The position numbers were made by a program, and so were the translations under genes. The notes beneath the pieces are model-generated. The model searched no databases and was not told where the DNA came from. It worked only from the letters and a program-made list of their open reading frames with translations. Below are positions 4,244 through 55,210 of a stretch of 64,000 nucleotides of DNA, piece after piece; positions within the stretch are counted from its first letter, which is position 1; each line of letters begins with the position of its first letter. Location of the stretch: the NCBI RefSeq assembly GCF_001677475.2, contig NZ_CP015229.1; one strand, 5' to 3'. This DNA comes from Escherichia coli (GTDB lineage: Bacteria; Pseudomonadota; Gammaproteobacteria; Enterobacterales; Enterobacteriaceae).

Positions 4244-4265
4244 AGTGCAATTAATTATTGCATAT

Positions 4266-32272: not shown

Positions 32273-33961
32273 TCAGTTCAAATCACGACTCATTTTTTTC
32301 GCTCTTACTGGCATCCCATTTGCCACAAAATATCTTGCCGTGCTCCTCGGCAACGCTTCTTGCCCGCGAATCATATCCGCTATTTTCTCGCCAATCATAA
32401 TGGTCGTGGCGTTCAAATTGCCGGTGATAATCTGCGGCATAATTGACGCATCCACCACGCGCAGGCCTTCCAGCCCATGCACGCGGCCTTCGCCGTCAAC
32501 CACGGACATCTCGTCGTAGCCCATTTTGCAGGTACCGCACGGATGGAAGGCGGTTTCGGCGTGGTTACGCACGAACTCATCGAGCTGCTCATCCGTCTGG
32601 CATTCGACACCGGGGCTGATTTCGCGGCCACGGTATTGATCCAGCGCGGGTTGATGCATGATCTCGCGGGTGATGCGAATTGCGTCGCGGAACTCCTGCC
32701 AGTCCTGCTCGTGCGACATGTAGTTAAACAGAATCGCCGGATGCTGGTGCGGGGTGCGGGATTTAATCCGCACATGCCCACGGCTTGGCGAGCGCATCGA
32801 TCCGACGTGGCACTGGAAGCCGTGCTCTTTCACTGCATTCGAGCCGTTATAGTTAATCGCTACTGGCAGGAAATGGTACTGAATATTCGGCCACGCAAAT
32901 TCCTCTCGGCTGCGAATAAATCCGCCTGCTTCAAAGTGGTTGCTGGCACCAACGCCGGTGCCGCCAAATAGCCACTCCGCACCGATTTTCGGCTGATTCC
33001 ACCACTGCAGGGCAGGGTAGAGGGAAACCGGTTCTTTGCACTCATATTGCAGATACATCTCCAGGTGATCCTGAAGATTTTCGCCGACGCCGGGTAAATC
33101 ATGCACCAGCGGAATATCAAACTCCGCCAGCAGTTCAGCGCTACCCACGCCGGAACGTTGCAGGATCTGCGGAGAGGCGATCGCACCTGCACATAACAGC
33201 ACCTCTTTATTCGCTGTCGCGCGGGTTGAAATGGTGCTATCGCCTTCCAGCCACTCGACGCCCACCGCGCGTTTGCCGTCAAAAATGATGTGATCGGTCA
33301 TAGCGTGAGTACGAATGGTCAGGTTCGGGCGCGATTTGGCCTGATCGAGATAACCGCGCGCGGTACTGGCGCGACGACCCTGCGGCGTGACGGTGCGATC
33401 CATCGGGCCAAAACCTTCCTGCTGATAGCCGTTGAGATCGTCCGTGCGCGGGTAGCCTGCCTGCACACCCGCTTCAATCATCGCTTCAAACAGCGGATTG
33501 ACGCCGGGTTTGGAGGTGGTGACGCTCACCGGGCCATTGCCACCGTGATAGTCGTTTTCACCAATATCGCGCGTCTCGGCCTTGCGGTAGTAGGGCAGGC
33601 AGTCGAGATAACTCCAGTTCTCCAGACCGGGTTCTTTTGCCCAGTTATCGAGATCCAGCGCGTTACCACGGATGTAACACATGCCGTTGATCAGTGATGA
33701 CCCGCCAAGCCCCTTACCGCGTCCGCACTCCATGCGACGGTTGTTCATAAACGGTTCCGGTTCCGTCTCATAGGCCCAGTTATAGCGTTTACCCTGTAAC
33801 GGGAACGCCAGCGCGGCGGGCATCTGGGTGCGGAAGTCAAAACGATAATCCGGGCCGCCCGCTTCAAGCAGCAATACGGTCGTGTTGGGATCTTCAGTCA
33901 GACGTGTAGCGAGGACGTTGCCGGCAGAGCCGGCACCAATAATGATGTAGTCAAATTGCAA
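32273..33961 (-). CDS. betA: Choline dehydrogenase BetA
   Basis: ORF track frame 32273..34006; start assigned to TTG at 33961 ([18 protein letters not shown] Rossmann motif) with AGGAGG 5 nt upstream. Confidence 0.85.
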
Positions 33962-33974
33962 ATAAACCTCCTGG

Positions 33975-35450
33975 TTAGAATATGGACTGGAATTTAGCCA
34001 TCTCAACCTGGATGGACTTCACCTGGGTGTAACTTTGTAGCGTCATCACGCCGTTCTCGCGGCCAATACCGGAGTGTTTGTAGCCGCCAACGGGCATCTC
34101 TGCCGGGGATTCGCCCCAGGTGTTGATCCAGCAGATACCCGCCTCAAGCTGGTGGATAACGCGGTGTGCGCGGTTCAGGTCAGCCGTCACGATGCCCGCC
34201 GCCAGGCCGTAGTTGGTGTCGTTGGCGCGGCGAATCACTTCGTCTTCCGTTTCATATGTGAGGATGGACATCACCGGCCCGAAAATCTCTTCGCGCACAA
34301 TGGTCATTTCGTCGCTGCAATCGGTGAACACGGTCGGTGCAATCCATGCGCCGTTATCGAAGCCATCGCCTTTCAGTACATCGCCGCCGCACAGTACGCG
34401 CGCGCCTTCCTCTTTGCCTTTGGCGATATAGCGCAGCACGTTATCGCGATGCGGGAAGCTGACCAGCGGGCCGAAGTTAGTTTGCGGATCGAAAACGTCG
34501 CCCGCGCGAATGCGCTCAACGCGCGCCAGAATTTTCTGCTCAAATGCGGCTTTGCATTTCGCCGGAATAAACACGCGGGTGCCGTTGGTACACACCTGGC
34601 CGGAGCTGAAGAAGTTCGCCATCATGGCAATATCGGCGGCGAGATCGAGGTCCGCATCGTCGAAAACGATCAGCGGCGATTTACCGCCCAGCTCCATGGT
34701 CACTTCTTTCAGGGAGGAAGCCGCCGAGTTAGCCATCACTTTTTTGCCGCTGGCGACGCCGCCGGTAAACGACACTTTGGCAATGCCCGGATGCTCGGTC
34801 AGATACTGCCCGGTCTCCGCGCCCACGCCCTGCAACACGTTAAATACGCCGTCCGGCAGGCCCGCTTCGCTGTAAATTTCGGCCAGCTTTAACGCGGTAA
34901 GCGGGGTGACTTCGCTCGGTTTGAAAATCATTGCATTGCCTGCCGCCAGCGCCGGGGCGGATTTCCATAGGGCAATCTGGATCGGGTAGTTCCACGCGCC
35001 AATCCCCGCGACCACGCCGAGCGGTTCGCGGCGAGTGTAGACAAACGATGTCTCACGCAGGGGGATCTGGCTGCCCTCCAGCGCTGGAATCAGCCCCGCG
35101 TAATACTCCAGTACATCTGCGCCGGTAACGATATCGACGGTTGAGGTTTCTGAATATGCTTTTCCGGCGTCGAGCGTTTCCAGTTTTGCGAGTTCGTCAT
35201 TGCGTTCACGTAGAATATCAACGGCCCGACGCAGAATACGCGAGCGTTCCATAGCGGTCATCGCCGCCCAGATTTTTTGCCCCTGTTGGGCACTCTTCAC
35301 GGCGTGATCGACATCCTCGCGCCCGGCGGCCTGCACGGTCGCCAGCACGTTACCGTTGGCCGGGTTAATGGTCTCGAAGGTGCGACCGCTGGTGGCGGAG
35401 GTATAACCACCATGTATATAAAGCTGCTGTTCTGCCATTCGGGACATCAC
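33975..35450 (-). CDS. betB: Betaine aldehyde dehydrogenase BetB
   Basis: ORF track 491 aa [22 protein letters not shown]... Confidence 0.9.
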
Positions 35451-35460
35451 GTTTCCTCGG

Positions 35461-36048
35461 TTAATCGGTGGGTAAATGCTGAGTAATAAAGTGACGGGTC
35501 AGCGAGTGTGCGAGAGGTTTATCCAGCGCTTTGCCGCTCAGTGCCGCGCGCAGCCATAATCCGTCAATTAGCGCGGCAAGGCCGTAGCCCGCTTCCTGTG
35601 CCTGTTGACGTGGTAACTCGCGGCGAAATTCGCTCACCAGATTCGACAATAAGCGGCGGCTACTGACCTGCTGCAAGCGATAGAGCATCGGCTGATGCAT
35701 ACTGCTGGCCCAGAAGGCCAGCCAGGCTTTCATCGCCGCACTGCTCACCTGGGTTTCATCGAAGTTTCCACCAACAATCGCCTGTAATCGCAGCTCTGCA
35801 CTGCCCTGCGGAAGTGCATGTAATCGATTCAAAACCGCGTCACGCAGCTGACTGGTGATATCGCGCATGGTTGCTTCCAGCAGACCATTTTTGTCCCTGA
35901 AATAGTGGCTGATGATCCCCGTAGAAACGCCTGCACGGCGGGCGATCTGCGCGATCGTTGCATCGTGCATGCCCACTTCATTTATTGCTTCCAGCGTGGC
36001 GTCGATCAGTTGTCTGCGCCGGATCGACTGCATCCCCAATTTGGGCAT
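35461..36048 (-). CDS. betI: TetR-family repressor BetI
   Basis: ORF track frame 35461..36066; start at [26 protein letters not shown]. Confidence 0.85.
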
Positions 36049-36176
36049 TTTCGCCACTCCATTCATCAGCGTTGTTTATCTATTAAAGCGGTTATTGATT
36101 GGACGTTCAATATAAAATGTGTCTTAATTGTTACGAATTTGATTTTAAATGGTAACAATAACAGTGGGGATACTGG

Positions 36177-37841
36177 ATGTCAGACCTTTCACACAGCAGG
36201 GAAAAGGACAAAATCAATCCGGTGGTGTTTTACACTTCCGCCGGACTGATTTTGTTGTTTTCCCTGACAACGATCCTGTTTCGCGACTTCTCGGCCCTGT
36301 GGATTGGACGCACGCTGGACTGGGTCTCTAAAACCTTCGGTTGGTACTATCTGCTGGCGGCAACGCTCTATATTGTCTTTGTGGTCTGTATCGCTTGTTC
36401 GCGTTTTGGTTCGGTGAAGCTCGGGGCAGAACAATCAAAACCGGAATTCAGTCTGCTGAGTTGGGCGGCGATGCTGTTTGCTGCCGGGATCGGTATCGAC
36501 CTGATGTTCTTCTCCGTAGCCGAACCGGTAACGCAGTATATGCAGCCGCCGGAAGGCGCGGGTCAGACGATTGAGGCCGCGCGTCAGGCGATGGTCTGGA
36601 CGCTGTTTCACTACGGCTTAACCGGCTGGTCGATGTATGCGCTGATGGGCATGGCGCTCGGATACTTTAGCTATCGTTATAATTTGCCGCTCACCATCCG
36701 CTCAGCGCTGTACCCGATCTTCGGTAAACGGATTAACGGGCCGATAGGTCACTCAGTGGATATTGCAGCGGTGATCGGCACTATCTTCGGTATTGCCACT
36801 ACGCTCGGTATCGGTGTGGTGCAGCTTAACTATGGCTTGAGCGTACTGTTTGATATTCCTGATTCAATGACGGCGAAAGCGGCACTGATCGCCTTGTCGG
36901 TGATCATCGCAACGATCTCTGTCACCTCCGGTGTCGATAAGGGCATTCGTGTGTTATCGGAACTCAACGTTGCGCTGGCGCTGGGGCTGATCCTGTTCGT
37001 GCTGTTTATGGGCGACACCTCGTTCCTGCTTAATGCGCTGGTGCTGAACGTTGGCGACTATGTGAATCGCTTTATGGGAATGACGCTCAACAGTTTTGCC
37101 TTCGACCGTCCGGTTGAGTGGATGAATAACTGGACGCTCTTCTTCTGGGCATGGTGGGTGGCATGGTCGCCGTTTGTCGGCCTGTTCCTGGCGCGTATCT
37201 CGCGTGGGCGTACCATTCGCCAGTTCGTGCTGGGCACGTTGATTATTCCGTTTACCTTCACGCTGTTATGGCTCTCGGTGTTCGGCAATAGCGCGCTGTA
37301 TGAAATCATCCACGGCGGCGCGGCATTTGCCGAGGAAGCGATGGTCCATCCGGAGCGCGGCTTCTACAGCCTGCTGGCGCAGTATCCGGCGTTTACCTTT
37401 AGCGCCTCCGTCGCCACCATTACTGGCCTGCTGTTTTATGTGACCTCGGCGGACTCCGGGGCGCTGGTGCTGGGGAATTTCACCTCGCAGCTTAAAGATA
37501 TCAACAGCGACGCCCCCGGCTGGCTGCGCGTCTTCTGGTCGGTGGCGATTGGTCTGCTGACGCTTGGCATGCTGATGACCAACGGGATATCCGCGCTGCA
37601 AAACACCACGGTAATCATGGGGCTGCCGTTCAGCTTTGTGATTTTCTTCGTGATGGCGGGGTTGTATAAATCTCTGAAGGTAGAAGATTACCGCCGTGAA
37701 AGTGCCAACCGTGATACCGCGCCGCGACCGTTGGGGCTTCAGGATCGCCTGAGCTGGAAAAAACGTCTCTCGCGCCTGATGAATTATCCGGGCACGCGTT
37801 ACACTAAACAGCTACCGTGTTTAGTCAAGAAAATTATGTGA
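36177..37841 (+). pseudogene. betT: betT 5' fragment: codons 1-545 of the BCCT choline transporter, then 9 IS-encoded codons and a stop
   Basis: ORF track 554 aa ends ...LMNYPGTRYTKQ/LPCLVKKIM*; the remaining BetT C-terminus (MMETVCYPAMEEV...) is found 1.38 kb downstream in the same frame register. Confidence 0.85.
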
Positions 37842-37995
37842 TGTTTGAACATTCCATCTTCAGGAGAAATTTTCTCTGAGTTTTTATAAAAGAGCAGATG
37901 CTCAGTTAGATACCATGAAAGAAGGTAAAAGATACAAACATGTTGCTTCAGCATTGCTCCGGTGTTATTGCTTACCATGTTGTTTTATAATGATT

Positions 37996-38982
37996 TTATT
38001 GATTGTATTCAGCATCGAATGGTAACTGCGTTTTCAGCACACCATAGCACCAGTGCACAAGTTTTCGCATTAATGCTCCAATAGCACACATCTTTGACTT
38101 TCCCCTCTGGCATAACTTCGTATACATCTGTTTCATTACAGGGTTGAACCTCAGCCCACATAAAGCTGCAAGATAAAGTTTTGTTCTTATCTCTGGTGGT
38201 CCAATTTTAGATAATTTAGGTTTTCCCTTTACAGATGTGCCAGATCTCCTTTCTACCGGAACTACACCAAGGAATGCTGCTGCCTGCTCTGCTGATTCGA
38301 ATGAATGGCTTTTGAGTATCGCCAGCATATTTAATCCCAGCAGATAACCAACAGATTTTATTGATGTTAACAGTCTGAAATCCTGGTTTAGTTCCGGGTG
38401 AGTTTCAATATGTTCCTGGATCAGGACATCAAGATGTTCGATCTCATTGTTCAGCTCCTGAAGCATGTGTTCAATTGATGCCCTGACGGCATCAGGGCTG
38501 TCTGTAAAAACAGATTTTTCAAGTCTGTTTTTTTCTCTGGTGCTATCTGCAACAAGAGCGTCTCTGCGGCGTAAAAGAGCTCTAAGATACCGCACAGATT
38601 CCGGTGGTGGAGTCCATGCCTCAGGCTCTTTAAGGGAGCCATAACAAGCCAGCATCCAGGCATCGACTTTGTCATTCTTGGTCAGGATATTCATCCCTCT
38701 GGCAAATTCCCTTGTACGGTGAGGATTGGCTAAAGAAATTCTGGCGCCAGCAAAGTGAAGGCCATAAGCCAGCGGTTCATGATATACCCCAGTGGCTTCC
38801 ATGATGATATGAACTTCGCCCAGTTCACAGGATTGCTTCTTAAGCCACTCTGTCACGACTTTAGCCGCATCAGCGGTATTTTTTAGCTTACGAGTTTTGA
38901 TCCTCCCTTTGATGCCCTCCCGTAAGAGACATAGATCAAGAGTGTTTTTACTGACATCAATACCTAATTGATACATTGGCAT
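37996..38982 (-). CDS. IS110-family DEDD transposase/recombinase (328 aa from the ATG at 38982; ORF frame extends to 39057)
   Basis: ORF track 353 aa; start placed at MPMYQLGIDVSKNTLDL (typical IS110 N-terminus with the first catalytic Asp in GIDVSK) preceded by AGGAG; C-terminal ...RRSGTSVKGKPKLSKIGPPEIRTKLYLAAL... resembles the IS110 transposase C-terminal domain. Confidence 0.8.
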   Translation of the reverse strand: MPMYQLGIDVSKNTLDLCLLREGIKGRIKTRKLKNTADAAKVVTEWLKKQSCELGEVHIIMEATGVYHEPLAYGLHFAGARISLANPHRTREFARGMNILTKNDKVDAWMLACYGSLKEPEAWTPPPESVRYLRALLRRRDALVADSTREKNRLEKSVFTDSPDAVRASIEHMLQELNNEIEHLDVLIQEHIETHPELNQDFRLLTSIKSVGYLLGLNMLAILKSHSFESAEQAAAFLGVVPVERRSGTSVKGKPKLSKIGPPEIRTKLYLAALCGLRFNPVMKQMYTKLCQRGKSKMCAIGALMRKLVHWCYGVLKTQLPFDAEYNQ

Positions 38983-39188
38983 TTTTTCTCCTTTCACATA
39001 ACCATCACGCCAATTTGTCTTGTTCATGCAGAGTCTTAGCTCTTGGCAACCGTTCAATGTTAATGCTGGCGTGAAAGGTGAAGCAGAGGACTATAGCTGT
39101 TGACGAAGGTTATTACCTTAGATGATGGGGTAGGTTCTCTCCGCTTCATGCGATGGTAGCTAATCATCGCTCGTTGATTACATACAAG
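38983..39188 (-). ncRNA. Candidate bridge/seek-RNA coding region in the recombinase-upstream non-coding end of the IS110-family element
   Basis: About 206-bp non-coding end upstream of the recombinase; contains a 9-nt copy of the target right flank (AGATGATGG at 39120-39128 versus 39187-39195) and GGTAGCT (39155-39161), the reverse complement of the left junction AGCTACC (37810-37816); RNA boundaries and structure not determined. Confidence 0.3.
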
Positions 39189-39587
39189 ATGATGGAGACG
39201 GTCTGTTACCCGGCAATGGAAGAAGTGGCGCAGGAGCTGCGGTTGCGCGGCGCGTACGTGGAGCTAAAAAGCCTGCCGCCGGAAGAGGGACAACAGTTGG
39301 GGCATCTGGATTTGTTGGTGCATATGGGCGAAGAGCAAAACTTTGTCTATCAGATTTGGCCGCAGCAATATTCGGTGCCGGGCTTTACCTACCGCGCACG
39401 TAGCGGTAAATCGACCTACTACCGGCTGGAAACCTTCCTGTTAGAAGGCAGCCAGGGCAACGACCTGATGGACTACAGCAAAGAGCAGGTGATCACCGAT
39501 ATTCTCGACCAGTACGAGCGGCACCTTAACTTTATCCATCTCCATCGTGAAGCGCCGGGCCATAGCGTGATGTTCCCGGACGCGTGA
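39189..39587 (+). pseudogene. betT: betT 3' fragment: codons 546-677, the cytoplasmic C-terminal domain
   Basis: ORF track 39153..39587 translates ...MMETVCYPAMEEVAQELRLRGAYVELKS...HSVMFPDA; the first 12 codons of that ORF are IS-derived. Confidence 0.85.
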
Positions 39588-40159
39588 TTGTTATTGCATA
39601 AAACCGCGCCATGTCTGCATATGGCGCGGGAATCATTGACTCGCTGTAAAAAATTATGCATATATTATATATGATTGTCATGTCATATCCTGCAATTCCT
39701 CTTGTATCACTTCATGATTTTATATTTTATTAATTAACGATTTTATTTTGTATTAGCTGAATGGATTCAGTCCTATAGTGTTATATATTTATTAATAAGA
39801 CGATTCTTATATTTTGATACCTAATAAGAGTTACCGCTTTTATCGGCTGTATATTAAATGTATTCCTCTTGCTTTTGTTTATATTTTGAGTTGATTTGAG
39901 TTCCTGGATACATATAATGCGCAGGTATTAGAGACTGGGAGGAATGTAATGATAAAGTTAAGAGTGTTAACTTAAAATAAGTTTTAAGTAATAACTTGCT
40001 ATTTTATTACCCTCTGAACTACATACTCAGATATGTGGTTGCCAATGCTATGCAAAATTTTTGAATTTTTATATGCGATGAACAGTAACCGGAATGGCAT
40101 TTAATGCGTTGCTGTTTATGCAATCTTAGTTTTATTTGGATGTATTGCTGGAGATTGTG

Positions 40160-43100
40160 ATGAATAAAATATATCGGCTAAAGTGGAACAGGTCCCGTAA
40201 CTGTTGGAGCGTCTGCTCTGAGCTGGGGAGCAGAGTAAAAGGAAAAAAGTCCCGGGCTGTTTTAATTAGCGCGATAAGTTTATATTCATCTCTGGTATTC
40301 GCCGATGATGTCATCGTAAACCAGGATAAAACTATTGATTTTGGCAAAGAGAACCAGAGCATCGATTACCGTATTACGGTGACTGACAATGCCAATCTGG
40401 TAATCAATGCGACAGATACTTCCCGTCCGCGTCTGACTCTCGCTTCTGGTGGTGGGTTGGATATTACCGGAGGAAAGGTAACAATCAATGGCCCACTTAA
40501 CTTTTTGCTGAAAGGTACGGGGTTCCTGAATGTCTCCAATGCTGGCAGCGAGTTATATGCTGATGATTTGTATGAGTCAAACTCAGGCATGAGACATGAT
40601 CGCGGCTATTTTAACGTCTCCAACGGCGGTAAAATCCATGTTAAGGGCACCAGCCGTCTGACCTATTTGCAGGGAAATGTCAGTGGTGAAGGCAGCCAGG
40701 TAAATTCTAAAACCTTCTTTATGGGCGTTTACGGCAGTTACGGTGGTAATCAGTACCTGTCAGTTAATAACGGCGGTGAAGTTAATGCCAGTGAGAAAAT
40801 TAGCCTGGGCTATTATGATCAAGTCTCCGATACAACACTTGCTGTTTCGGAAGGTGGTAAAATTTCTGCGCCGACTATTAGTTTAAGCACCAACTCTGAG
40901 TTAGCGTTAGGTGCACAGGAAGGAAGCGCTGCGAAGGCGGCAGGGATTATTGATGCCGAAAAAATTGAGTTTGTGTGGGCAAAGACATCCGATAAGAAAA
41001 TCACCTTAAACCACACGGATAAAAACGCGACTATTTCCGCGGATATTGTCAGTGGCAGCGAGGGCCTGGGCTATATCAATGCGCTCAATGGCACGACTTA
41101 CTTAACCGGGGATAACTCCGCCTTTAGCGGTAAAGTCAAAATTGAGCAAAATGGCGCTTTAGGGATCACCCAAAATATAGGTACAGCAGAGATCACCAAC
41201 CGCGGGAAATTACACCTGAAGGCTGAGGATAGCATGACCTTTGCCAATAAGATCTCCGGCAACGGTACAATAAGTATCGACAGTGGGACGGTGGAGTTGA
41301 CCGGCAATAACTATGCATTCTACGGATATATTGATGTTGCTTCCGATGCTGTAGCTGTTATTTCTGAAGACAAGAACATCGGCCGTGCAGAACTGGATGT
41401 TGATGGCAAACTGCAAATCAATGCCAATAAAGATTGGGTATTTGATAACGATCTTGAAGGTAGAGGCATTGTTGAAATAAACATGGGGAATCACGAATTC
41501 TCCTTCGATGAGTTTGCTTATACAGACTGGTTCCAGGGTTCACTGGCGTTCCAGAACACGACATTTAACCTGGAAAAGAATGCTGAGTTTCTTCAGAGAG
41601 GCGGGATCACTGCGGGTCAGGGAAGTCAGGTAACAGTAGGTAAGGGCGCTCATTCTATTAGCTCTCTGGGATTCTCCGGCGGAACCGTTGATTTTGGTGC
41701 CCTTGCAGCTGGTGCACAGATGACAGAAGGGACAGTCAACATTAGTAAAACGCTGGATTTGCGCGGCGAGGGTGTGATTCAGGTTTCTGACAGTGACGTT
41801 GTCCGCTCAGTATCTCGTGATATTGACTCTGCGTTATCGCTCACTGAAGTCGATGATGGTAACAGCACCATTAAGTTGGTTGATGCGCAAGGTGCGGAAG
41901 TTCTGGGCGATGCGGGCAATCTGCAATTGCAGGATAAAAATGGGCAAATCCTCTCCAGCAGCGCCCAACGTGATATTCAGCAGAATGGGCAAAAAGCGGC
42001 CGTCGGCACTTACGACTATCGTCTGACGAGTGGGGTAAACAATGACGGTCTGTATATCGGTTACGGCCTGACCCAGCTTGATTTACACGCTACCGACAGT
42101 GATGCCCTGGTGCTGAGCTCTAACGGTAAAAGCGAGAATGCCGCCGATCTCAGCGCAAAGATTACCGGCAGTGGTGACCTGGCATTCAGCAGCCAGAAGG
42201 GTCAGACCGTATCGCTTTCTAACAAAGACAACGACTATACCGGTGTTACCGATCTGCGCAGTGGGACGCTTTTGTTGAATAACGATAACGTGTTGGGTCA
42301 TACCCATGAACTGCGTCTGGCGGCAGAGACTGAACTGGATATGAATGGTTACAGCCAGATCGTGGGCACGCTCAATGGCAGCGCCGATTCACTGCTGAGC
42401 TTGAACGGCGGCAGTCTGACGGTTACCAACGGGGGCACTTCAACCGGTTCGTTAACGGGGAGCGGAGAGCTGAATATTCAGGGCGGCACGCTGGACATCG
42501 CGGGCGATAACAGCAACCTGACGGCGAATGTGAACATTGCTAATTCGGCTAATGTCCTGGTAAGTCATGCGCAGGGATTGGGTAGCGCAAACGTTGAGAA
42601 CAACGGTACCCTGGCGTTGAATAATAGCGCTGAAAAAAGAGCGGCTGCGTCTGTGAATTACACCCTGGGCGGCAATCTGACCAACAACGGTACGCTGATG
42701 ACCGGAATGTCAGGACAGCAAGCTGGCAATGTGTTAGTGGTGAAGGGGAACTACCACGGTAATAACGGTCAACTAGTAATGAATACGGTACTGAATGGCG
42801 ATGACTCAGTAACCGATAAATTGGTTGTCGAGGGCGATACTAGCGGCACGACTGCCGTTACGGTGAATAACGCTGGCGGTACAGGTGCGAAAACCCTTAA
42901 CGGTATCGAACTTATCCATGTAGATGGTAAGTCTGAGGGCGAATTTGTTCAGGCTGGGCGTATCGTTGCGGGGGCGTATGACTACACTCTCGCGCGTGGA
43001 CAAGGGGCAAATAGTGGTAACTGGTATCTGACCAGCGGCAGTGATTCTCCTGAACTGCAGCCGGAGCCAGACCCGATGCCGAATCCGGAGCCAAACCCGA

Positions 43101-44149
43101 CACCGAATCCGACACCAGAGCCGACGCCAGAGCCAACGCCTGTTCCTGACCAGACTCTGGATAATGACCTGCGCCCGGAGGCTGGTGGTTACATCGCGAA
43201 CCTTGCGGCAGCCAACACAATGTTAACCTCCCGACTGCATGAACGTCTGGGGAGCACATACTATACCGATCTGGTCACGGGTGAGCAGAAACAAACCACC
43301 ATGTGGATGCGTCATGAAGGGGGTCACAACAAATGGCGTGATGCAAGTGGCCAGTTGAAAACCCAAAGCAATCGCTATGTTCTGCAACTGGGGGGCGATA
43401 TCGCGCAGTGGAGTATAAGTGGCAACGACCGCTGGCATCTGGGGGTCATGGCTGGTTACGGTAACAGTGACAGCAAGACTATCTCATCGCGCACCGGTTA
43501 TCGAACTAAAGCAAGCGTGAATGGTTACAGCACGGGGTTATATGCGACCTGGTATGCGGATGATGAGTCACATAACGGGGCGTATCTCGACAGTTGGGCG
43601 CAGTACAGCTGGTTTGATAACACAGTGAAAGGGGATGACTTACAAAGTGAATCCTATAAATCAAAAGGATTTACCGCTTCACTGGAAGCTGGATACAAAC
43701 ACAAATTAGCTGAATTTAATGGCAGCCAGGGAACGCGTAATGAATGGTATGTTCAGCCGCAAGCACAGGTTACCTGGATGGGAGTCAAAGCCGATAAGCA
43801 CCGCGAAAGCAACGGAACCCTCGTTCATAGCAACGGTGATGGCAATGTTCAAACCCGACTTGGCGTAAAAACCTGGCTGAATAGCCACCATAAAATGGAT
43901 GACGGTAAATCCCGCGAGTTCCAGCCGTTTGTAGAAGTGAACTGGCTACATAACAGTAAGGATTTCAGCATCAGTATGGATGGCGTGTCCGTCACTCAGG
44001 ATGGAGCCCGAAATATTGCTGAGATAAAAACCGGGGTGGAAGGACAGCTAAATGCCAACCTGAATGTCTGGGGGAATGTGGGCGTTCAGGTTGCCGATAG
44101 GGGATATAATGACACCTCTGCAATGGTTGGCATTAAGTGGCAATTCTGA
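40160..44149 (+). CDS. ehaA: AIDA-I/EhaA-type classical autotransporter adhesin (about 1329 aa)
   Basis: ORF track frame 40136..44149; extended signal peptide MNKIYRLKWNRSRNCWSVCSELGSRV; long passenger; Pro-rich linker PEPDPMPNPEPNPTPNPTPEPTPEPTPVP; C-terminal beta-barrel ending ...VGIKWQF; position between betT and pdeL matches the recalled ehaA locus of O157-type strains. Confidence 0.75.
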   Translation: MNKIYRLKWNRSRNCWSVCSELGSRVKGKKSRAVLISAISLYSSLVFADDVIVNQDKTIDFGKENQSIDYRITVTDNANLVINATDTSRPRLTLASGGGLDITGGKVTINGPLNFLLKGTGFLNVSNAGSELYADDLYESNSGMRHDRGYFNVSNGGKIHVKGTSRLTYLQGNVSGEGSQVNSKTFFMGVYGSYGGNQYLSVNNGGEVNASEKISLGYYDQVSDTTLAVSEGGKISAPTISLSTNSELALGAQEGSAAKAAGIIDAEKIEFVWAKTSDKKITLNHTDKNATISADIVSGSEGLGYINALNGTTYLTGDNSAFSGKVKIEQNGALGITQNIGTAEITNRGKLHLKAEDSMTFANKISGNGTISIDSGTVELTGNNYAFYGYIDVASDAVAVISEDKNIGRAELDVDGKLQINANKDWVFDNDLEGRGIVEINMGNHEFSFDEFAYTDWFQGSLAFQNTTFNLEKNAEFLQRGGITAGQGSQVTVGKGAHSISSLGFSGGTVDFGALAAGAQMTEGTVNISKTLDLRGEGVIQVSDSDVVRSVSRDIDSALSLTEVDDGNSTIKLVDAQGAEVLGDAGNLQLQDKNGQILSSSAQRDIQQNGQKAAVGTYDYRLTSGVNNDGLYIGYGLTQLDLHATDSDALVLSSNGKSENAADLSAKITGSGDLAFSSQKGQTVSLSNKDNDYTGVTDLRSGTLLLNNDNVLGHTHELRLAAETELDMNGYSQIVGTLNGSADSLLSLNGGSLTVTNGGTSTGSLTGSGELNIQGGTLDIAGDNSNLTANVNIANSANVLVSHAQGLGSANVENNGTLALNNSAEKRAAASVNYTLGGNLTNNGTLMTGMSGQQAGNVLVVKGNYHGNNGQLVMNTVLNGDDSVTDKLVVEGDTSGTTAVTVNNAGGTGAKTLNGIELIHVDGKSEGEFVQAGRIVAGAYDYTLARGQGANSGNWYLTSGSDSPELQPEPDPMPNPEPNPTPNPTPEPTPEPTPVPDQTLDNDLRPEAGGYIANLAAANTMLTSRLHERLGSTYYTDLVTGEQKQTTMWMRHEGGHNKWRDASGQLKTQSNRYVLQLGGDIAQWSISGNDRWHLGVMAGYGNSDSKTISSRTGYRTKASVNGYSTGLYATWYADDESHNGAYLDSWAQYSWFDNTVKGDDLQSESYKSKGFTASLEAGYKHKLAEFNGSQGTRNEWYVQPQAQVTWMGVKADKHRESNGTLVHSNGDGNVQTRLGVKTWLNSHHKMDDGKSREFQPFVEVNWLHNSKDFSISMDGVSVTQDGARNIAEIKTGVEGQLNANLNVWGNVGVQVADRGYNDTSAMVGIKWQF

Positions 44150-44281
44150 TCTGAATAATGAGTAAAAGGAGAGAGAGCCGAACGGGAGATAATTCGGCTC
44201 TCTGTGTCATTTTCTTGCAGCCAGCTTTATCAGTCAGAGTGAAGACTCGCAGATTTAGCTGGCGCACAAGATTTAATCAAG

Positions 44282-45379
44282 GTGTGTTCAATGGCTTCGC
44301 ATGATTTGAGTGTTTTTTTGGAAGAGTTCGGGGCAACGGTGAATTTGACGTTGCCTGGTATCGTGTCCGAAAAAGAACGGCTTTTACTCAAGCTGCTAAT
44401 GGAGGGAATGTCGGTTACAGAAATCTCACAGTACAGAAATCGCAGTGCAAAGACAATTTCACATCAAAAGAAGCAGCTGTATGAAAAACTAGGCATCCAG
44501 AGTGATATTACCTTCTGGCGGGATATCTTTTTTCAATATCATCCGCAAATCAGCAGTGGCACGGGAAATAAAAATAATTTTTATATCCCTGATAACCGTT
44601 GTCACCATATAGTCACGCCTGAAGCCATCAGTCTGGCGTTGGAAAACCACGAATTCAAACCGTGGATCCAACCGGTTTTCTGCGCGCAGACTGGGGTACT
44701 GACGGGCTGTGAGGTGCTTGTCCGCTGGGAACATCCACAAACGGGAATTATCCCACCGGATCAGTTTATTCCTCTGGCGGAGTCATCTGGTCTTATCGTC
44801 ATAATGACTCGCCAGTTGATGAAACAGACTGCGGATATTCTGATGCCGGTAAAACATTTGCTGCCGGACAATTTCCATATTGGCATCAACGTCTCGGCGG
44901 GTTGTTTTTTGGCTGCGGGATTTGAAAAAGAGTGTCTGAACCTGGTTAAGAAATTAGGTAACGATAAAATCAAACTGGTTCTCGAGCTAACGGAACGTAA
45001 CCCTATTCCGGTAACGCCAGAAGCCAGAGCGATATTTGACAGCCTTCATCAGCACAACATTACCTTTGCGCTGGATGACTTTGGTACGGGTTATGCGACC
45101 TATCGTTACTTGCAGGCGTTTCCGGTCGATTTTATTAAGATCGATAAGTCATTTGTGCAAATGGCGAGCGTGGACGAAATATCCGGTCATATTGTGGACA
45201 ATATTGTCGAACTGGCGCGTAAGCCTGGTCTGAGTATCGTGGCGGAAGGGGTAGAAACCCAGGAGCAGGCGGATTTAATGATCGGCAAAGGCGTTCACTT
45301 TTTGCAGGGCTATTTGTACTCTCCGCCAGTACCGGGTAATAAATTTATCTCTGAATGGGTAATGAAAGCAGGTGGTTGA
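44282..45379 (+). CDS. pdeL: c-di-GMP phosphodiesterase PdeL (LuxR-type HTH + EAL domain)
   Basis: ORF track 365 aa; HTH ...ERLLLKLLMEGMSVTEISQYRNRSAKTISHQKKQLYEKLG and EAL-domain region ...LVLELTERNPIP... Confidence 0.85.
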   Translation: MCSMASHDLSVFLEEFGATVNLTLPGIVSEKERLLLKLLMEGMSVTEISQYRNRSAKTISHQKKQLYEKLGIQSDITFWRDIFFQYHPQISSGTGNKNNFYIPDNRCHHIVTPEAISLALENHEFKPWIQPVFCAQTGVLTGCEVLVRWEHPQTGIIPPDQFIPLAESSGLIVIMTRQLMKQTADILMPVKHLLPDNFHIGINVSAGCFLAAGFEKECLNLVKKLGNDKIKLVLELTERNPIPVTPEARAIFDSLHQHNITFALDDFGTGYATYRYLQAFPVDFIKIDKSFVQMASVDEISGHIVDNIVELARKPGLSIVAEGVETQEQADLMIGKGVHFLQGYLYSPPVPGNKFISEWVMKAGG

Positions 45380-45420
45380 TGTAAACCGCTATTCACAGCG
45401 CATCGGGAGGTTGGCAGCGA

Positions 45421-46353
45421 TTAATTCTCCCGATGCAGTAAATCCTGATAGATCCCCGTTAATATGCCATTTGGCGAAAATTGTTTTTTAATCCACTGCG
45501 TCACCTGACCGGTGGCAGAGTGCTGGGTCGCCAGTAACATGCGTGAATCCTGGCGCGGATTATGGATTTGTCGGGTAACCAGCAGGGATTGCGCCATCGC
45601 CTCACGGACCATGTAATCCGGCAAAAAACCAATTCCTTCGCCTAAAATCTGGCACTGACATTTGGTGTTGAAATCTGGCACCAGAATCGACTCCTGCCCA
45701 TGCAGCAACCAGCCCACTTTTTTATTAATCGTATGCGCGGTGTCCTCCACCATGATATTAGGGTAGAGACGCAGCTGGCTTTCGGCGATCGGCTCCGGCA
45801 CAAAGGCTAATGGGTGATCCGGGGCGATAGCAAAAGCCCAGCGAATTGCGCCAATCTCCGTGTAATCAATGCCGCCGCCGTCCAGCAGTGTGTCGGGCGC
45901 GCCGATAGCAATATTCGCCTGATTATTAATAATCGCATCCCAGACGCCGTTATACACTTCGGTCGTCACGGTAATCTGGCAGGTTGGAAACTGCTTTTTC
46001 AGTACCTGTAATAAGCGTGCGGTGTGTTTGGGCGTATAAAGCAGTTGGTTAATACAAATGCGCACCCGTGCTTCTATACCCTGCGAAATAGTATCGATGC
46101 TGCGTTTGATGGCGTGAAAATCATTCAGCAGGTCGGTAGCTTTGCGGAAAAAATAACGCCCGGACTCCGTTAACTCAATGCTTCGGGTACTGCGAGTGAA
46201 CAGCACCACATCCAGCCCCGTCTCCATTCGCTTGATGGTGTAGCTAATGGCGGAAGTGGTTAAACCCAACTCTTCTGCGGCTTTACTGAAACTGCCAAAA
46301 CGCGCAGCGGTAGTAAATGCCAACAGATTCTCTTCGGTAAAAATTGAGTTCAT
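45421..46353 (-). CDS. yahB: LysR-family regulator YahB
   Basis: ORF track 310 aa; N-terminal HTH LLAFTTAARFGSFSKAAEELGLTTSAISYTIKRMETGL. Confidence 0.8.
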   Translation of the reverse strand: MNSIFTEENLLAFTTAARFGSFSKAAEELGLTTSAISYTIKRMETGLDVVLFTRSTRSIELTESGRYFFRKATDLLNDFHAIKRSIDTISQGIEARVRICINQLLYTPKHTARLLQVLKKQFPTCQITVTTEVYNGVWDAIINNQANIAIGAPDTLLDGGGIDYTEIGAIRWAFAIAPDHPLAFVPEPIAESQLRLYPNIMVEDTAHTINKKVGWLLHGQESILVPDFNTKCQCQILGEGIGFLPDYMVREAMAQSLLVTRQIHNPRQDSRMLLATQHSATGQVTQWIKKQFSPNGILTGIYQDLLHREN

Positions 46354-46444
46354 TAAACCATTCCCGCCATTATCTAATATGAATTTCTCCAGCCATGACT
46401 GTAGAGGTATCGGTTAAAGATAGATAATCATTTTTGAATAACTT

Positions 46445-46942
46445 TTAATACCCGTCGCGTTTAGTCGTCGCTTCGCTTAATTTTTGTCCGCCATATTCTG
46501 AAATTATCCCCACGCAGTTACCCGCCAGATAACCCAGTAATGTCACCGTCCAGTTCATCCCGCTGGCAAAAAATAGCGTCATGCCGAGAAAGCCTCCGGG
46601 AATAAAAGACAATAAACCGAAACGTCCTTGCCAGACCACCACCGCCGAGAAGGGTACAGTCATAATCACGCTCGCCCAGAACGTGGACAATCCACTCACC
46701 GAGGCCAGCCAACCGGCAGCCAGCGCGGCGAAAAACGCCCACACCATCCCGGAATAATTAACCGCCAGGCTTCTGATAAACCCCGATTTACCGCCGCCTG
46801 CGGCATAAAAACTGCAAAAGGCGACGAAGCCAATGGTTCCTAATAATTCCCATCCCTGAGAGAGCCCGACATGTGAAGACACTAACTGCCAAAGCCCTGC
46901 ACAAATACCGACGGTGACACCCGTTGCCGTGAGTCCGTTCAT
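46445..46942 (-). CDS. yahC: Inner membrane protein YahC (DUF1097)
   Basis: ORF track 165 aa, highly hydrophobic. Confidence 0.75.
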   Translation of the reverse strand: MNGLTATGVTVGICAGLWQLVSSHVGLSQGWELLGTIGFVAFCSFYAAGGGKSGFIRSLAVNYSGMVWAFFAALAAGWLASVSGLSTFWASVIMTVPFSAVVVWQGRFGLLSFIPGGFLGMTLFFASGMNWTVTLLGYLAGNCVGIISEYGGQKLSEATTKRDGY

Positions 46943-47199
46943 CTTGTTCCCCTCTTGTTAGACATGGACGAAAGCTACTCTTACATGTGCAGACTATAGA
47001 GAAATAAAACCTGATTGAGTGAAAGGGTATCGGGTCAAAGAAACAAATATTGCACTACCGCACACTGCGAAAAGATTGTTGAACATCATTCAACAAAAAG
47101 GCGAAATACGGCGAATTAAATTTAAGCGGGTTCTTTTATCAGATTATCGTTGCTATTCTCAATTCATCGAAAACAGCCACAAAAACCAGGGGAATGTGA

Positions 47200-47805
47200 A
47201 TGACTATAAAAAATCTACCTGCCGACTATTTATTGGCTGCACAACAGGGTGATATCGATAAAGTAAAAACCTGCCTTGCGCTGGGTGTCGATATTAATAC
47301 CTGCGATCGTCAGGGGAAAACGGCAATTACGCTGGCAAGTTTATATCAGCAATATGCTTGCGTTCAGGCATTAATTGACGCCGGAGCGGATATTAATAAA
47401 CAAGATCATACCTGTTTAAATCCTTTTTTAATTAGCTGTCTGAACGATGATTTAACCCTGTTACGGATTATTTTACCGGCTAAACCCGATCTTAATTGCG
47501 TCACCCGTTTTGGCGGTGTCGGCCTGACGCCTGCCTGTGAAAAAGGCCATTTAAGTATTGTAAAAGAGCTTTTGGCGCATACGGAGATTAACGTTAACCA
47601 GACTAACCATGTTGGCTGGACGCCGCTACTGGAAGCAATTGTGCTTAATGATGGCGGGATTAAACAGCAGGCGATTGTCCAGTTATTGCTTGAACACGGT
47701 GCCAGCCCGCACATGACGGATAAATATGGCAAAACGCCGCTGGAACTGGCGCGGGAACGAGGCTTTGAAGAGATTGCGCAGTTACTGATTGCCGCAGGTG
47801 CATAA
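47200..47805 (+). CDS. yahD: Ankyrin-repeat protein YahD
   Basis: ORF track 201 aa with ankyrin-like repeats (GKTAITLASLYQQYACVQALIDAGADIN; GWTPLLEAIVLND...). Confidence 0.8.
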   Translation: MTIKNLPADYLLAAQQGDIDKVKTCLALGVDINTCDRQGKTAITLASLYQQYACVQALIDAGADINKQDHTCLNPFLISCLNDDLTLLRIILPAKPDLNCVTRFGGVGLTPACEKGHLSIVKELLAHTEINVNQTNHVGWTPLLEAIVLNDGGIKQQAIVQLLLEHGASPHMTDKYGKTPLELARERGFEEIAQLLIAAGA

Positions 47806-47844
47806 ACCGGGAGGCTTGCTATCAACACACCAGAAAGACGGTGT

Positions 47845-51663: not shown

Positions 51664-51685
51664 CATGCAAAGTGCGCGTTGTCTC

Positions 51686-51860
51686 TGCCGGATGCGGCGT
51701 GAACGCCTTATCCGGCCTACGAGTGGCGCAAGAACCTGTAGGCCTGATAAGCGTAGCGCATCAGGCATTTTTCACGATTGCCGGATGCGGCGTGAACGCC
51801 TTATCCGGTCTACGAATGGCACAAGAATCTGTAGGCCTGATAAGCGTAGCGCATCAGGCA
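51686..51860. repeat. REP/BIME cluster: two tandem copies of an ~80-bp unit (copies differ at a few positions), each holding a pair of inverted REP sequences
   Basis: GATGCGGCGTGAACGCCTTATCCGG(C/T)CTACGA(G/A)TGGC(G/A)CAAGAA(C/T)CTGTAGGCCTGATAAGCGTAGCGCATCAGGCA occurs twice in direct orientation. Confidence 0.85.
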
Positions 51861-51909
51861 ATTTGGCGTTGGTCATAACCCCATCACCCTCTGTAGCGGA
51901 CATAACAAT

Positions 51910-52860: not shown

Positions 52861-52869
52861 GGACGTAAG

Positions 52870-54252: not shown

Positions 54253-54549
54253 TACGCATTTAATATGTCTGCAACGGTGAACAGTAAGAGATTTAAGCCC
54301 CAGGGAGTGGGGCGGCAATGGTTGCTAATGAATCATCCTGAACTTTATAATCTCCAGGCATAATTTCCAGGGGATTATTTGAGAGAAATACACAAAAGTG
54401 AGTTTTAACAAAGGTATTTATCAGGCCATAAATGTGACCTGCTTCGGATAAAAAAGATTAAACATAGAAAAACCAATGATACTCTTGCTGATGGTTACCA
54501 ACAGTAATTAAGATGTGATTTGTTTTTCCGTAATCGCGAAAATATTCTC

Positions 54550-54960: not shown

Positions 54961-55210
54961 ATATCTATTTATCTACGTGAAATAAGCTCACAAACATAAA
55001 ATGTCGCTAATTTTGTTTATCTTGCTATTTTTTACGTGATGAATATCACACTTATTGTTGCTGCCCGTTTTGTCCATATTTATAACCATATTTTTAATAG
55101 CTGCCTGAAATAGGGCTGTTTATTCTGCATAAAAATATTCGAAAATTCTTATTCTCTCCAGCGCGCTAATTTGGGCGAACACTTCCTGACTACCCTGCAA
55201 TGAGGCTGAA

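What the first reader, a model, noticed from the sequence alone, without database searches (positions are those of the whole stretch)
36177..39587. IS110-family element cleanly splits the choline transporter gene betT
The betT frame runs for 545 codons (...GTRYTKQ) and then enters foreign sequence (LPCLVKKIM*). The remaining 132 codons of BetT (MMETVCYPAMEEV...HSVMFPDA) resume at 39189 after a 1377-bp insert encoding a DEDD-type IS110-family recombinase. 545 + 132 = 677, the recalled full BetT length, so nothing was lost or duplicated beyond a possible 2-bp AG core. That points to a recent insertion. The disrupted protein keeps the whole membrane core but loses the cytoplasmic C-terminal domain that (from published BetT truncation work, recalled) is needed for osmotic activation, so this strain may have altered rather than absent choline uptake.
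Basis: partly seen in the sequence, partly recalled or inferred. Interest (0 to 1): 0.75.

Follow-up and report, generated by a model that had tools for sequence, protein, structure and literature searches.

The report
Bridge-RNA insertion sequence splitting betT
A known plasmid-borne IS110-family "jumping gene", guided by its own bridge RNA, has landed seamlessly at a matching 11-base site in the choline transporter gene betT and cut off its regulatory tail; this is a correct but ordinary observation.

Summary
Window 36177-37811 is betT codons 1-545 and 39189-39587 is codons 546-677. They are separated by 1377 extra bases: a 1375-bp element plus a second copy of the AG (CT on the element's strand) core.

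The element sits on the minus strand and encodes a 328-aa DEDD/Ser recombinase of the IS110 family, 36.6% identical to IS621 with all five catalytic residues conserved. Its left end encodes an IS621-type bridge RNA. The target guides read CCAUCAUCU and ACAG, matching the betT site CCATCAT-CT-GT 11 of 11. The donor guides match the element's own RE-LE junction.

Copies with 0-2 base differences sit in the leading region of F-like plasmids at CCATCATCT|GTTGAG. The same dinucleotide of betT, in the same orientation, is occupied in at least four different betT allele backgrounds and by two IS variants. That points to recurrent RNA-programmed insertion.

RefSeq already annotates this insertion in two complete genomes. 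The betT target and this bridge RNA are in the supplementary data of Durrant et al. 2024.

The truncated BetT keeps the membrane domain. Published work on E. coli BetT lacking its C-terminal domain suggests basal transport without full osmotic activation. Nothing here is new in kind, so interest is low.

The parts
36177..37811 (+). betT 5' fragment, codons 1-545 (whole BCCT membrane domain, linker and about 20 residues of the C-terminal domain). The open frame runs on into the IS to the TGA at 37839-37841, adding LPCLVKKIM.
37810..37811 (.). Core dinucleotide, copy next to the right end (AG on +, CT on the element's strand). These are also the last two bases of codon Q545.
37812..39186 (-). 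IS110-family (IS110 subgroup, IS621-like) insertion sequence, 1375 bp without the core copies.
37812..37995 (-). Right non-coding end (RE), 184 bp. It ends ...TTGACTAAACACGGTAG. The left-donor sequence ACGGTAG is at 37812-37818.
37823..37828 (-). -35 hexamer TTGACT of the junction promoter. It is functional only when the RE is joined to the LE (circle or tandem dimer).
37996..38982 (-). Recombinase gene, 328 aa plus stop. It has a DEDD RuvC-like domain and a Tnp domain. D9/E62/D104/D107/S247 align with IS621 D11/E60/D102/D105/S241. The RBS AAAGGAG lies upstream.
38983..39186 (-). Left non-coding end (LE), 204 bp, encoding the bridge RNA. It is 100% identical in both IS variants.
39177..39182 (-). 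-10 hexamer TGTAAT of the junction promoter.
39150..39170 (-). Bridge RNA 5' stem-loop (GCGATG-ATTAGCTAC-CATCGC).
39080..39147 (-). Target-binding loop.
- Left target guide CCAUCAUCU: 39120-39128.
- Inner hairpin: 39106-39119.
- Right target guide ACAG: 39097-39100 (extended form UCAACAG: 39097-39103).
- Handshake guide CU: 39095-39096.
   Evidence: published alignment
39006..39073 (-). Donor-binding loop.
- Left donor guide ACGGUUGC: 39046-39053.
- Right donor guide AU(GA)ACAAG: 39019-39027.
- Handshake guide AC: 39017-39018.
   Evidence: published alignment
39187..39188 (.). Core dinucleotide, copy next to the left end (AG on +, CT on the element's strand).
39189..39587 (+). betT 3' fragment, codons 546-677 plus stop (most of the cytoplasmic C-terminal regulatory domain). 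It has no amino-acid difference from K-12.

Best explanation
A mobile IS110-subgroup insertion sequence, a distant relative of IS621, has inserted into betT by bridge-RNA-guided recombination. Its usual home is the leading region of F-like conjugative plasmids.

**Inferred from the IS621 mechanism**
- The element excises as a circle.
- Joining the right end (RE) to the left end (LE) across the CT core creates a sigma-70 promoter, TTGACT-17 bp-TGTAAT.
- That promoter transcribes a roughly 170-nt bridge RNA from the LE, and presumably the recombinase behind it.
- The donor-binding loop of the RNA pairs with the circle junction ACGGTAG-CT-TGTAT.
- The target-binding loop pairs with CCATCAT-CT-GT.
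- A tetramer of the DEDD/Ser recombinase exchanges strands at the CT core. The element is then integrated with CT at both ends and nothing is lost or duplicated.

**Shown from the sequence**
- Codons 544-548 of betT (AAA CAG ATG ATG GAG) happen to carry the 11-base target on the opposite strand, so betT is a recurrent chromosomal off-home site.
- The insertion ends BetT at residue 545 with a 9-residue foreign tail and separates it from residues 546-677.

**Inferred from published deletions of the E. coli BetT C-terminal domain**
- The strain probably still takes up choline at a basal rate.
- It probably cannot fully switch the transporter on under osmotic stress.

**Inferred from the family mechanism**
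- Because IS110 excision is scarless, the disruption is in principle reversible.
For: **Junction**
- It is exact to the base, with AG/CT on both sides.

**Recombinase**
- Pfam PF01548 and PF02371 match.
- NCBIfam NF033542 scores 213 bits against a cut-off of 140.
- It aligns end to end with the IS621 transposase 8wt6 (E 1.8e-48) and with ISCro4.
- All five catalytic residues are conserved.

**Bridge RNA**
- The LE folds into a 5' stem-loop plus two stem/internal-loop modules, at positions homologous to the IS621 map in PMC11208158.
- The left target guide CCAUCAUCU equals the target left half plus core, 9 of 9.
- The right target guide ACAG is complementary to CTGT, 4 of 4. The extended form matches 6 of 7 for betT and 7 of 7 for the plasmid and ccmH-side sites.
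- The left donor guide ACGGUUGC matches donor ACGGTAGC at 7 of 8.
- The right donor guide AU--ACAAG pairs with CTTGTAT in the same discontiguous 9-on-7 pattern as IS621.
- Handshake guide CU pairs with donor positions 6-7 (AG) and not with the cognate target T7.

**Comparison with relatives**
- The scaffold is conserved while the guide columns vary with the flanks.

**Promoter**
- It scores 10 of 12 only in the RE-CT-LE junction, and 8 of 12 in the integrated state.

**Target specificity**
- Three unrelated loci share CCATCATCT|GTT: betT, the plasmid leading region, and a site near ccmH.

**Recurrence**
- betT is hit at the same dinucleotide and in the same orientation in at least four allele backgrounds that differ by 25-48 nt, and by two IS variants that differ by 40 nt.

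**Published record**
- Durrant et al. 2024 supplementary data contain this bridge RNA, its donor junction and the betT target ACCGTCTCCATCATCTGTTTAGTGTAACGCG.

**BetT consequence**
-.
Against: - Nothing contradicts the explanation, but no expression or activity data exist for this element.
- Transcription of the bridge RNA, circle formation and recombinase activity are inferred from a relative that is 36.6% identical.
- The left donor guide has one mismatch with the donor. Handshake base C (39017) does not pair with target position 6.
- RNAalifold pairs part of the left-donor-guide segment with the right-donor-guide segment. The free RNA may therefore fold differently from the protein-bound form.
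- Rfam 15 gave no hit.
- The phenotype of this exact BetT truncation is untested. It retains about 20 CTD residues and has a 9-aa tail.
Confidence: 0.93

Rival explanations
1. There was one ancestral insertion into betT. The betT::IS allele was later spread between lineages by homologous recombination, rather than arising by repeated RNA-guided insertion.
For: - IS variant A is nearly identical (0-2 nt differences) in the window, ARS-C301, GCA_053801055.1, GCA_021079845.1 and GCA_050781955.1.
- The betT 3' fragment differs less between strains than the 5' fragment does.
Against: - A second IS variant, 40 nt different and identical to a plasmid copy, occupies the same site in AH19B041.
- Flank polymorphisms begin 57-80 bp left and 148-229 bp right of the IS. 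Any recombination tract would therefore have to be barely longer than the element.
- The same element shows the same 12-base preference at two other loci.
- The betT alleles fall into at least four groups.
Confidence: 0.08
2. This copy is an inactive relic. The match between the LE loops and the flanks reflects history only, and the element no longer moves.
For: - In the integrated state the -35 box of the bridge-RNA promoter is lost (8 of 12 match).
- Only one copy is present in the 64-kb window.
Against: - The recombinase ORF is intact and identical in sequence to a protein seen on 330 contigs.
- The LE is 100% identical to all other copies.
- A perfect head-to-tail dimer, which re-creates the active junction, exists in another genome.
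- ARS-C301 carries plasmid and chromosomal copies together.
Confidence: 0.1
3. The interruption is an assembly or chimera artefact.
For: None found.
Against: - The identical junction is present in two complete RefSeq chromosomes and three further assemblies.
- The junction is base-perfect, with the expected core dinucleotide.
Confidence: 0.01

Closest known systems
IS621 (E. coli, IS110 subgroup; Durrant et al. 2024, PMC11208160; Hiraizumi et al. 2024, PMC11208158; PDB 8wt6)
   Same: - Same two-domain DEDD/Ser recombinase with all five catalytic residues.
- CT core.
- Bridge RNA in the LE with a 5' stem-loop, target-binding loop and donor-binding loop.
- 9-nt left target guide and 4-nt right target guide.
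- 8-nt left donor guide and a discontiguous right donor guide pairing with CTTGTAT.
- Handshake guides.
- A promoter split across the RE-LE junction.
   Different: - Only 36.6% amino-acid identity.
- Different target: CCATCAT-CT-GT rather than the REP-type ATCAGGC-CT-AC.
- Different left donor: ACGGTAG rather than ACAGTAT.
- Longer RE (184 bp), for a total of 1375 bp against 1279 bp (the IS621 length is recalled).
- Its home is the leading region of F-like plasmids rather than REP elements.
ISCro4 / IS622 (PDB 9t56; bioRxiv 10.1101/2025.05.14.653916)
   Same: Bridge recombinase with the same architecture. It is the second-best solved-structure match (E 4.9e-45).
   Different: It comes from a different host and has different guides. 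It was not compared in detail here.
Unnamed IS110-family relatives on ColV/IncF plasmids and Pantoea or Klebsiella plasmids (L008, L011, L012-L018)
   Same: - 70-81% identical LE with an almost identical donor-binding loop.
- Same donor junction ACGGTAG-CT-TGTATG in L008.
   Different: Their target guides differ, for example CCCAGCCCU/GCAG and CCCUUCCCU/GCAG. Their flanks differ accordingly.
IS492 of Pseudoalteromonas atlantica (IS110 family; Higgins et al. 2007, cited in PMC11208160)
   Same: An IS110-family element that interrupts a gene seamlessly and can excise precisely, restoring the gene.
   Different: For IS492 the reversible switch (phase variation) is demonstrated. For betT::IS, reversibility is only a mechanistic possibility.
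Engineered E. coli BetT lacking the C-terminal domain (PMC11323884, fig. S9B; Tondervik and Strom 2007, recalled, not held in the library)
   Same: The membrane domain is retained and the cytoplasmic CTD removed. The reported result is basal transport without full hyperosmotic activation.
   Different: - The natural allele keeps residues 513-545 and adds LPCLVKKIM.
- Its mRNA runs into antisense IS sequence.
- Its activity is unmeasured.

Membership tests
IS110 family of insertion sequences | [quoted passage not shown] | tested here: met
   PF01548 at 1.7e-24 and PF02371 at 1.6e-18. NF033542 at 213 bits against a cut-off of 140.
IS110 family of insertion sequences | Catalytic D-E-D-D tetrad and conserved serine | tested here: met
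   D9, E62, D104, D107 and S247 align with IS621 D11, E60, D102, D105 and S241.
IS110 family of insertion sequences | Seamless insertion with a short core (here CT) at both ends and no classical target-site duplication | tested here: met
   only AG/CT is repeated and no betT base is lost.
IS110 family of insertion sequences | ISfinder assignment and name | not testable with these tools
   ISfinder is not available. RefSeq and cluster names say only 'IS110 family transposase'.
IS110-subgroup bridge-RNA elements (IS621 type) | Non-coding RNA in the LE, upstream of the recombinase, with a 5' stem-loop, target-binding loop and donor-binding loop | tested here: met
   - Single-sequence fold.
- Consensus fold of 8 relatives: 49 pairs, of which 8 have compensatory changes.
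- The sequence is a row in the published bridge-RNA covariation inputs.
IS110-subgroup bridge-RNA elements (IS621 type) | Target guides match the target and donor guides match the RE-LE junction, each including the core | tested here: met
   left target guide 9 of 9, right target guide 4 of 4, left donor guide 7 of 8, right donor guide 7 of 7 (discontiguous).
IS110-subgroup bridge-RNA elements (IS621 type) | Guides covary with flanks across relatives while the scaffold stays conserved | tested here: met
   - L014 and L016 9 of 9, L011 8 of 9 plus a G.T pair, L018 7 of 9, L008 right target guide 6 of 6.
- Exceptions: L008, L013 and L017 left flanks and the L012 left target guide do not match.
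- The sample is small.
IS110-subgroup bridge-RNA elements (IS621 type) | Handshake guides pair with the non-cognate DNA and not with the cognate one | tested here: inconclusive
   - plus the flank sequences.
- Target-binding-loop CU pairs with donor A6 and G7, and C does not pair with target T7.
- In the donor-binding-loop AC, A pairs with target T7 but C does not pair with target A6.
IS110-subgroup bridge-RNA elements (IS621 type) | Sigma-70 promoter reconstituted across the RE-LE junction | tested here: met
   TTGACT-17-TGTAAT (10 of 12) in the junction, against 8 of 12 when integrated. No promoter-like site at the integrated LE.
IS110-subgroup bridge-RNA elements (IS621 type) | RNA is transcribed, binds the recombinase and directs recombination; a circular intermediate exists | not testable with these tools
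   This requires RNA-seq or Northern blotting, outward PCR and recombination assays.
IS621 itself (same element) | Near-identical recombinase and the same guides and target | tested here: not met
   36.6% identity. Target and left donor differ.
BetT (BCCT choline:H+ symporter of the betTIBA locus) | Collinear with K-12 betT, divergent from betIBA, 677 codons | tested here: met
   - 545 + 132 codons with 3 amino-acid differences.
- betI/betB/betA are upstream on the opposite strand.
- 8-512 matches the solved E. coli BetT.

The most novel reading that the evidence does not exclude
betT may be more than an accidental off-target. It may be a recurrent chromosomal landing pad for this plasmid-borne bridge-RNA element, with one of two biological consequences.

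- **A reversible switch.** It would resemble IS492. Scarless excision would restore betT, toggling osmotically activated choline uptake, possibly under selection in gut or farm habitats.
- **A docking site.** The chromosomal copy could give F-like plasmids that carry the same IS a way to integrate, making Hfr-like chromosome-plasmid fusions.
  - A betT-left/plasmid-right hybrid flank is in the Durrant data set.
  - A yifB-IS-plasmid fusion exists in GPEC1258.
Probability: 0.12. Interest if true: 0.45.

Novelty: already known. Interest (0 to 1): 0.22.

Why it matters
- **Natural illustration.** This is a clean example of bridge-RNA programmed insertion. A plasmid element whose guides specify CCATCAT-CT-GT repeatedly hits the one matching site in betT, in unrelated strains, at the same base and in the same orientation.
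- **Annotation.** The two 'partial' betT pseudogene pieces are one recently split gene. The IS should be annotated with its bridge RNA.
- **Physiology.** Carriers probably have blunted choline-to-glycine-betaine osmoprotection.
- **Limits.** None of this changes what is known about IS110 elements or BetT.

Tried and rejected
- **Rfam 15.** A scan of the element at E<=1 gave no hit, so Rfam could not confirm the bridge RNA.
- **Species representatives.** An exact junction 29-mer against 100,044 species-representative genomes gave 0 matches. The source genome could not be named.
- **Plasmid integration at betT.** A synthetic plasmid-left/IS/betT-right query against all complete E. coli genomes found no record covering both flanks. 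The hybrid flank in the Durrant data (target_seq846) could not be traced.
- **BetT truncation paper.** Tondervik and Strom 2007 is not held. The CTD claim therefore rests on PMC11323884.
- **IS622 preprint.** Its supplement is not held.
- **Published supplements.** Protein-sequence strings of this recombinase are absent from the Durrant supplement text. No ISfinder-style name was obtained. Cluster names are generic.
- **LE stem-loop.** I first considered the GCTACC in the 5' stem-loop as a possible donor guide, because it is complementary to GGTAGC. I rejected this in favour of ACGGUUGC at the position homologous to IS621 A123-C130.
- **Source of the window.** I considered that the window might be strain ARS-C301 itself. 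This was rejected: there are 309 differences in 9.4 kb.
- **Klebsiella-type relatives.** I could not reconcile their RE ends and left donor guides in the time spent.
Full report
**1. Observation**

The + strand ORF 36177..37841 encodes 554 residues ending ...NYPGTRYTKQ-LPCLVKKIM*.

I compared it base by base with K-12 betT (b0314, 2034 nt, 677 codons):
- betT nt 1-1635 lie at window 36177-37811.
- betT nt 1634-2034 lie at window 39187-39587.
- The K-12 sequence ...ACTAAACAG|ATGATGGAG... appears in the window as ...ACTAAACAG-[1375 bp]-AGATGATGGAG....

No betT base is missing. M546 starts at 39189.

Against K-12, the two halves carry 44 nucleotide differences but only 3 amino-acid differences, all in the first half. 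There are no stops or frameshifts. The gene was therefore under purifying selection until very recently.

**2. What the insert is**

A minus-strand gene occupies 37996-38982. It encodes 328 aa and starts at an ATG behind AAAGGAG, which is the start RefSeq uses.

| Test | Result |
|---|---|
| Pfam DEDD_Tnp_IS110 | 1.7e-24 |
| Pfam Transposase_20 | 1.6e-18 |
| NCBIfam NF033542, 'IS110 family RNA-guided transposase' | 213 bits (cut-off 140) |
| Solved IS621 transposase 8wt6 | E 1.8e-48, end-to-end alignment |
| ISCro4 | E 4.9e-45 |

Identity to IS621 is 36.6%. D9, E62, D104, D107 and S247 align with the IS621 catalytic residues D11, E60, D102, D105 and S241.

Read on the element's own strand, the anatomy is:
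- core CT
- left end (LE), 204 bp (39186-38983)
- recombinase
- right end (RE), 184 bp (37995-37812)
- core CT

**3. Bridge RNA**

I used the IS621 map from Hiraizumi et al.:
- 5' stem-loop: 1-33
- target-binding loop: 34-98, with left target guide (LTG) 50-58, right target guide (RTG) 77-80 and handshake guide 81-82
- donor-binding loop: 110-177, with left donor guide (LDG) 123-130, right donor guide (RDG) 157-158/162-165 and handshake guide 166-167

The LE of this element contains the same modules at homologous positions.

| Module | Sequence | Window coordinates |
|---|---|---|
| 5' stem-loop | GCGATG...CATCGC | 39170-39150 |
| Outer stem of the target-binding loop | GAAGCGGAGAG / CCTCTGCTTC | within 39147-39080 |
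| LTG | CCAUCAUCU | 39128-39120 |
| Inner hairpin | AAGGUAAUAACCUU | 39119-39106 |
| RTG | ACAG (extended form UCAACAG) | 39100-39097 (39103-39097) |
| Handshake guide, target side | CU | 39096-39095 |
| Outer stem of the donor-binding loop | CACGCCA / TGGCGTG | within 39073-39006 |
| LDG | ACGGUUGC | 39053-39046 |
| RDG | AU(GA)ACAAG | 39027-39019 |
| Handshake guide, donor side | AC | 39018-39017 |

How the guides match:
- **Target.** On the element's strand the betT target is CCATCAT-CT-GTTTAGT. The LTG equals positions 1-9 (9 of 9). The RTG complements positions 8-11 (4 of 4). The extended RTG matches 6 of 7.
- **Donor.** The RE-LE junction is ACGGTAG-CT-TGTATGT. The LDG matches 7 of 8. 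The RDG pairs with CTTGTAT in the same discontiguous 9-on-7 pattern described for IS621.
- **Handshake.** The CU handshake guide pairs with donor positions 6-7 (A, G) and not with the cognate target T7, as the handshake model requires. The donor-side AC guide fits only at its first base.

A 9-mer identical to the flank is expected by chance in a 204-nt sequence with probability of about 7e-4 (my arithmetic).

Joining RE to LE creates TTGACT-17 bp-TGTAAT, a 10 of 12 match to the sigma-70 consensus. In the integrated state the -35 position reads CAGACC (8 of 12), and the promoter scan finds nothing there. This matches the published circle-dependent promoter (PMC11208160).

**4. Comparative support**

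LE homologues are common on enterobacterial plasmids: 1312 records. I fetched eight and aligned them.

The consensus fold has the three modules, 49 pairs in all, of which 8 show compensatory changes. The scaffold is conserved. The donor-binding loop is nearly invariant. The LTG and RTG columns are the variable ones.

Where the flanks are interpretable they follow the guides:
- L014 and L016: LTG CCCUUCCCU against flank CCCTTCCCT, 9 of 9.
- L011: 8 of 9 plus one G.T pair.
- L018: 7 of 9.
- L008: RTG UAGCAG against right flank CTGCTA, 6 of 6. Its RE ends with the same ACGGTAG-CT.
- Exceptions: the left flanks of L008, L013 and L017 look donor-like, and the L012 LTG is out of register with its flank. 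I did not resolve these.

This element is also already in the literature's data. The target/bridge-RNA and donor/bridge-RNA covariation inputs of Durrant et al. 2024 contain its bridge RNA and its donor junction ATTTTCTTGACTAAACACGGTAGCTTGTATGTAATCAACGAGCGATGATT.... Their target list contains target_seq851, ACCGTCTCCATCATCTGTTTAGTGTAACGCG, which is exactly the betT site. Rfam 15 has no matching family.

**5. Where the element lives and how often it hits betT**

Copies with 0-2 base differences (at least 99.85% identical) sit on F-like conjugative plasmids. They lie in the leading region, between hok/mok-psiA/psiB and a DUF932 gene, inside a short ORF annotated as SSB or hypothetical. The insertion site there is GCCCCCATCATCT|GTTGAGTTTC. 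This site matches the guides further than betT does, with the extended RTG at 7 of 7 and two more C's before the LTG. It is probably the home target. A third target, CTCCATCATCT|GTTGACG near ccmH, is occupied by a perfect head-to-tail dimer in CP193973.1.

The betT junction is present in only 2 of 5426 complete E. coli genomes. These are ARS-C301 and AH19B041, and RefSeq annotates both as two betT pseudogene pieces around an 'IS110 family transposase'. It is also present in three further assemblies.

None of these is the window's genome. The window differs from ARS-C301 at 309 of 9441 positions, but at only 2 positions inside the IS.

The betT alleles of the carriers fall into at least four groups that differ by 25-48 nt. 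AH19B041 carries IS variant B, which is 40 nt different from variant A and identical to a plasmid copy. In every case the dinucleotide and the orientation are the same.

Flank polymorphisms begin 57-80 bp to the left of the IS and 148-229 bp to the right. Repeated independent insertion is therefore much more likely than spread of a single allele by recombination. The 204-bp LE is identical in both variants although the rest of the element differs by about 3%. That fits a constrained RNA.

The window's chromosome is only 96.6-97.4% identical to its best match among complete E. coli genomes. The IS is clearly a recent horizontal arrival there.

**6. Consequence for BetT**

- Solved structures cover E. 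coli BetT residues 8-512, the membrane domain.
- The break Q545|M546 aligns with R548|F549 of P. syringae BetT. That protein's membrane domain is residues 11-515 and its C-terminal domain (CTD) is residues 528-664.
- The truncated product therefore keeps the transporter core, the linker and about 20 CTD residues. It gains LPCLVKKIM and loses the bulk of the CTD.
- The detached CTD has an in-frame ATG inside the IS (ORF 39153-39587), but I found no promoter or RBS for it.
- IS110 elements excise scarlessly (PMC11208160), so precise excision would regenerate wild-type betT. This follows from the family mechanism and was not tested.

**7. Verdict**

The observation and the interpretation are both right. 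The element is a member of the IS110 subgroup of bridge-RNA insertion sequences. It is not IS621 itself.

The class, the mechanism, this element's bridge RNA, its plasmid home and the betT target are all already on record. What the analysis adds:
- the explicit guide-to-site map in window coordinates
- evidence that betT has been hit independently several times
- the point that the 'AG duplication' is the recombination core

Novelty is 'already known' and interest is low, about 0.2.

Noticed in passing
window 33000-37811 and 44200-56200: The chromosome around the IS is only 96.6% and 97.4% identical to its best match among 5426 complete E. coli genomes. The IS itself is 99.85% identical to E. 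coli plasmid copies. The host may be a deep-branching or cryptic Escherichia lineage. A junction 29-mer found nothing among species-representative genomes.
   Followed up: partly
L028 (GCA_053834805.1, CP193973.1) 2297-5048: Two copies of the same IS form a perfect head-to-tail tandem (RE-CT-LE junction, which re-creates the bridge-RNA promoter). They are inserted at a third target, CTCCATCATCT|GTTGACG, near a ccmH-like gene.
   Followed up: partly
L007 (E. coli GPEC1258 chromosome) 1501-2896; Durrant 2024 Supplementary Data 2, target_seq846: In GPEC1258 the IS has yifB on its RE side and plasmid leading-region genes (ssb, DUF905, parB) on its LE side. That is a chromosome-plasmid fusion at an IS copy. 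The published target list also holds a hybrid flank, betT on the LE side and plasmid on the RE side. No such betT hybrid was found in complete E. coli genomes.
   Followed up: partly
L008 2343-2370 (minus strand); L013 and L017 left flanks; L012 left target guide: In some relatives the DNA left of the LE does not match the left target guide but looks like a donor left half (ACAGTAT-CT in L008, CCACGGTGG-CT in L013 and L017). In L012 the left target guide is out of register with its flank. Possible explanations are rearrangements at the LE or donor-loop-directed events. This is unexplained.
   Followed up: no
window 38983-39186 versus L003, L006, L007: The 204-bp LE (bridge RNA) is 100% identical between IS variants A and B, which differ at 40-44 positions elsewhere. 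Of those differences, 12-15 lie in the 184-bp RE.
   Followed up: yes
window 39153-39587 (+): An ORF starts at an ATG inside the IS left end and reads in frame into the detached BetT C-terminal domain (MVANHRSLITYK-MMETV..., 144 aa). No promoter-like site or Shine-Dalgarno sequence was seen, so it is probably not expressed.
   Followed up: partly
window 12276-12286 (+): This is the only near-target in the 64-kb window: ACATCATCTGT, one mismatch to CCATCATCTGT. It is unoccupied, and the count is no more than chance expectation.
   Followed up: yes
window 62183-62263 (+): ARAGORN calls an 81-nt tRNA-Ser(GGA), but Rfam finds no tRNA there at gathering threshold. The sequence has a tRNA-like acceptor/T-arm ending CCA. 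It may be a tRNA remnant or a false call.
   Followed up: partly
window 40136-44149 (+): A 1337-aa autotransporter ORF lies between betT and pdeL. The corresponding gene is annotated ehaA in ARS-C301, and it is absent from K-12 and from AH19B041 at this position. It is locally much more divergent from ARS-C301 than its surroundings.
   Followed up: no
window 4025-4223 (+) and 51741-51810 (-): Rfam hits at gathering threshold: IS009 sRNA (193.5 bits) and naRNA4/CssrE (66.9 bits). These are ordinary E. coli features.
   Followed up: no
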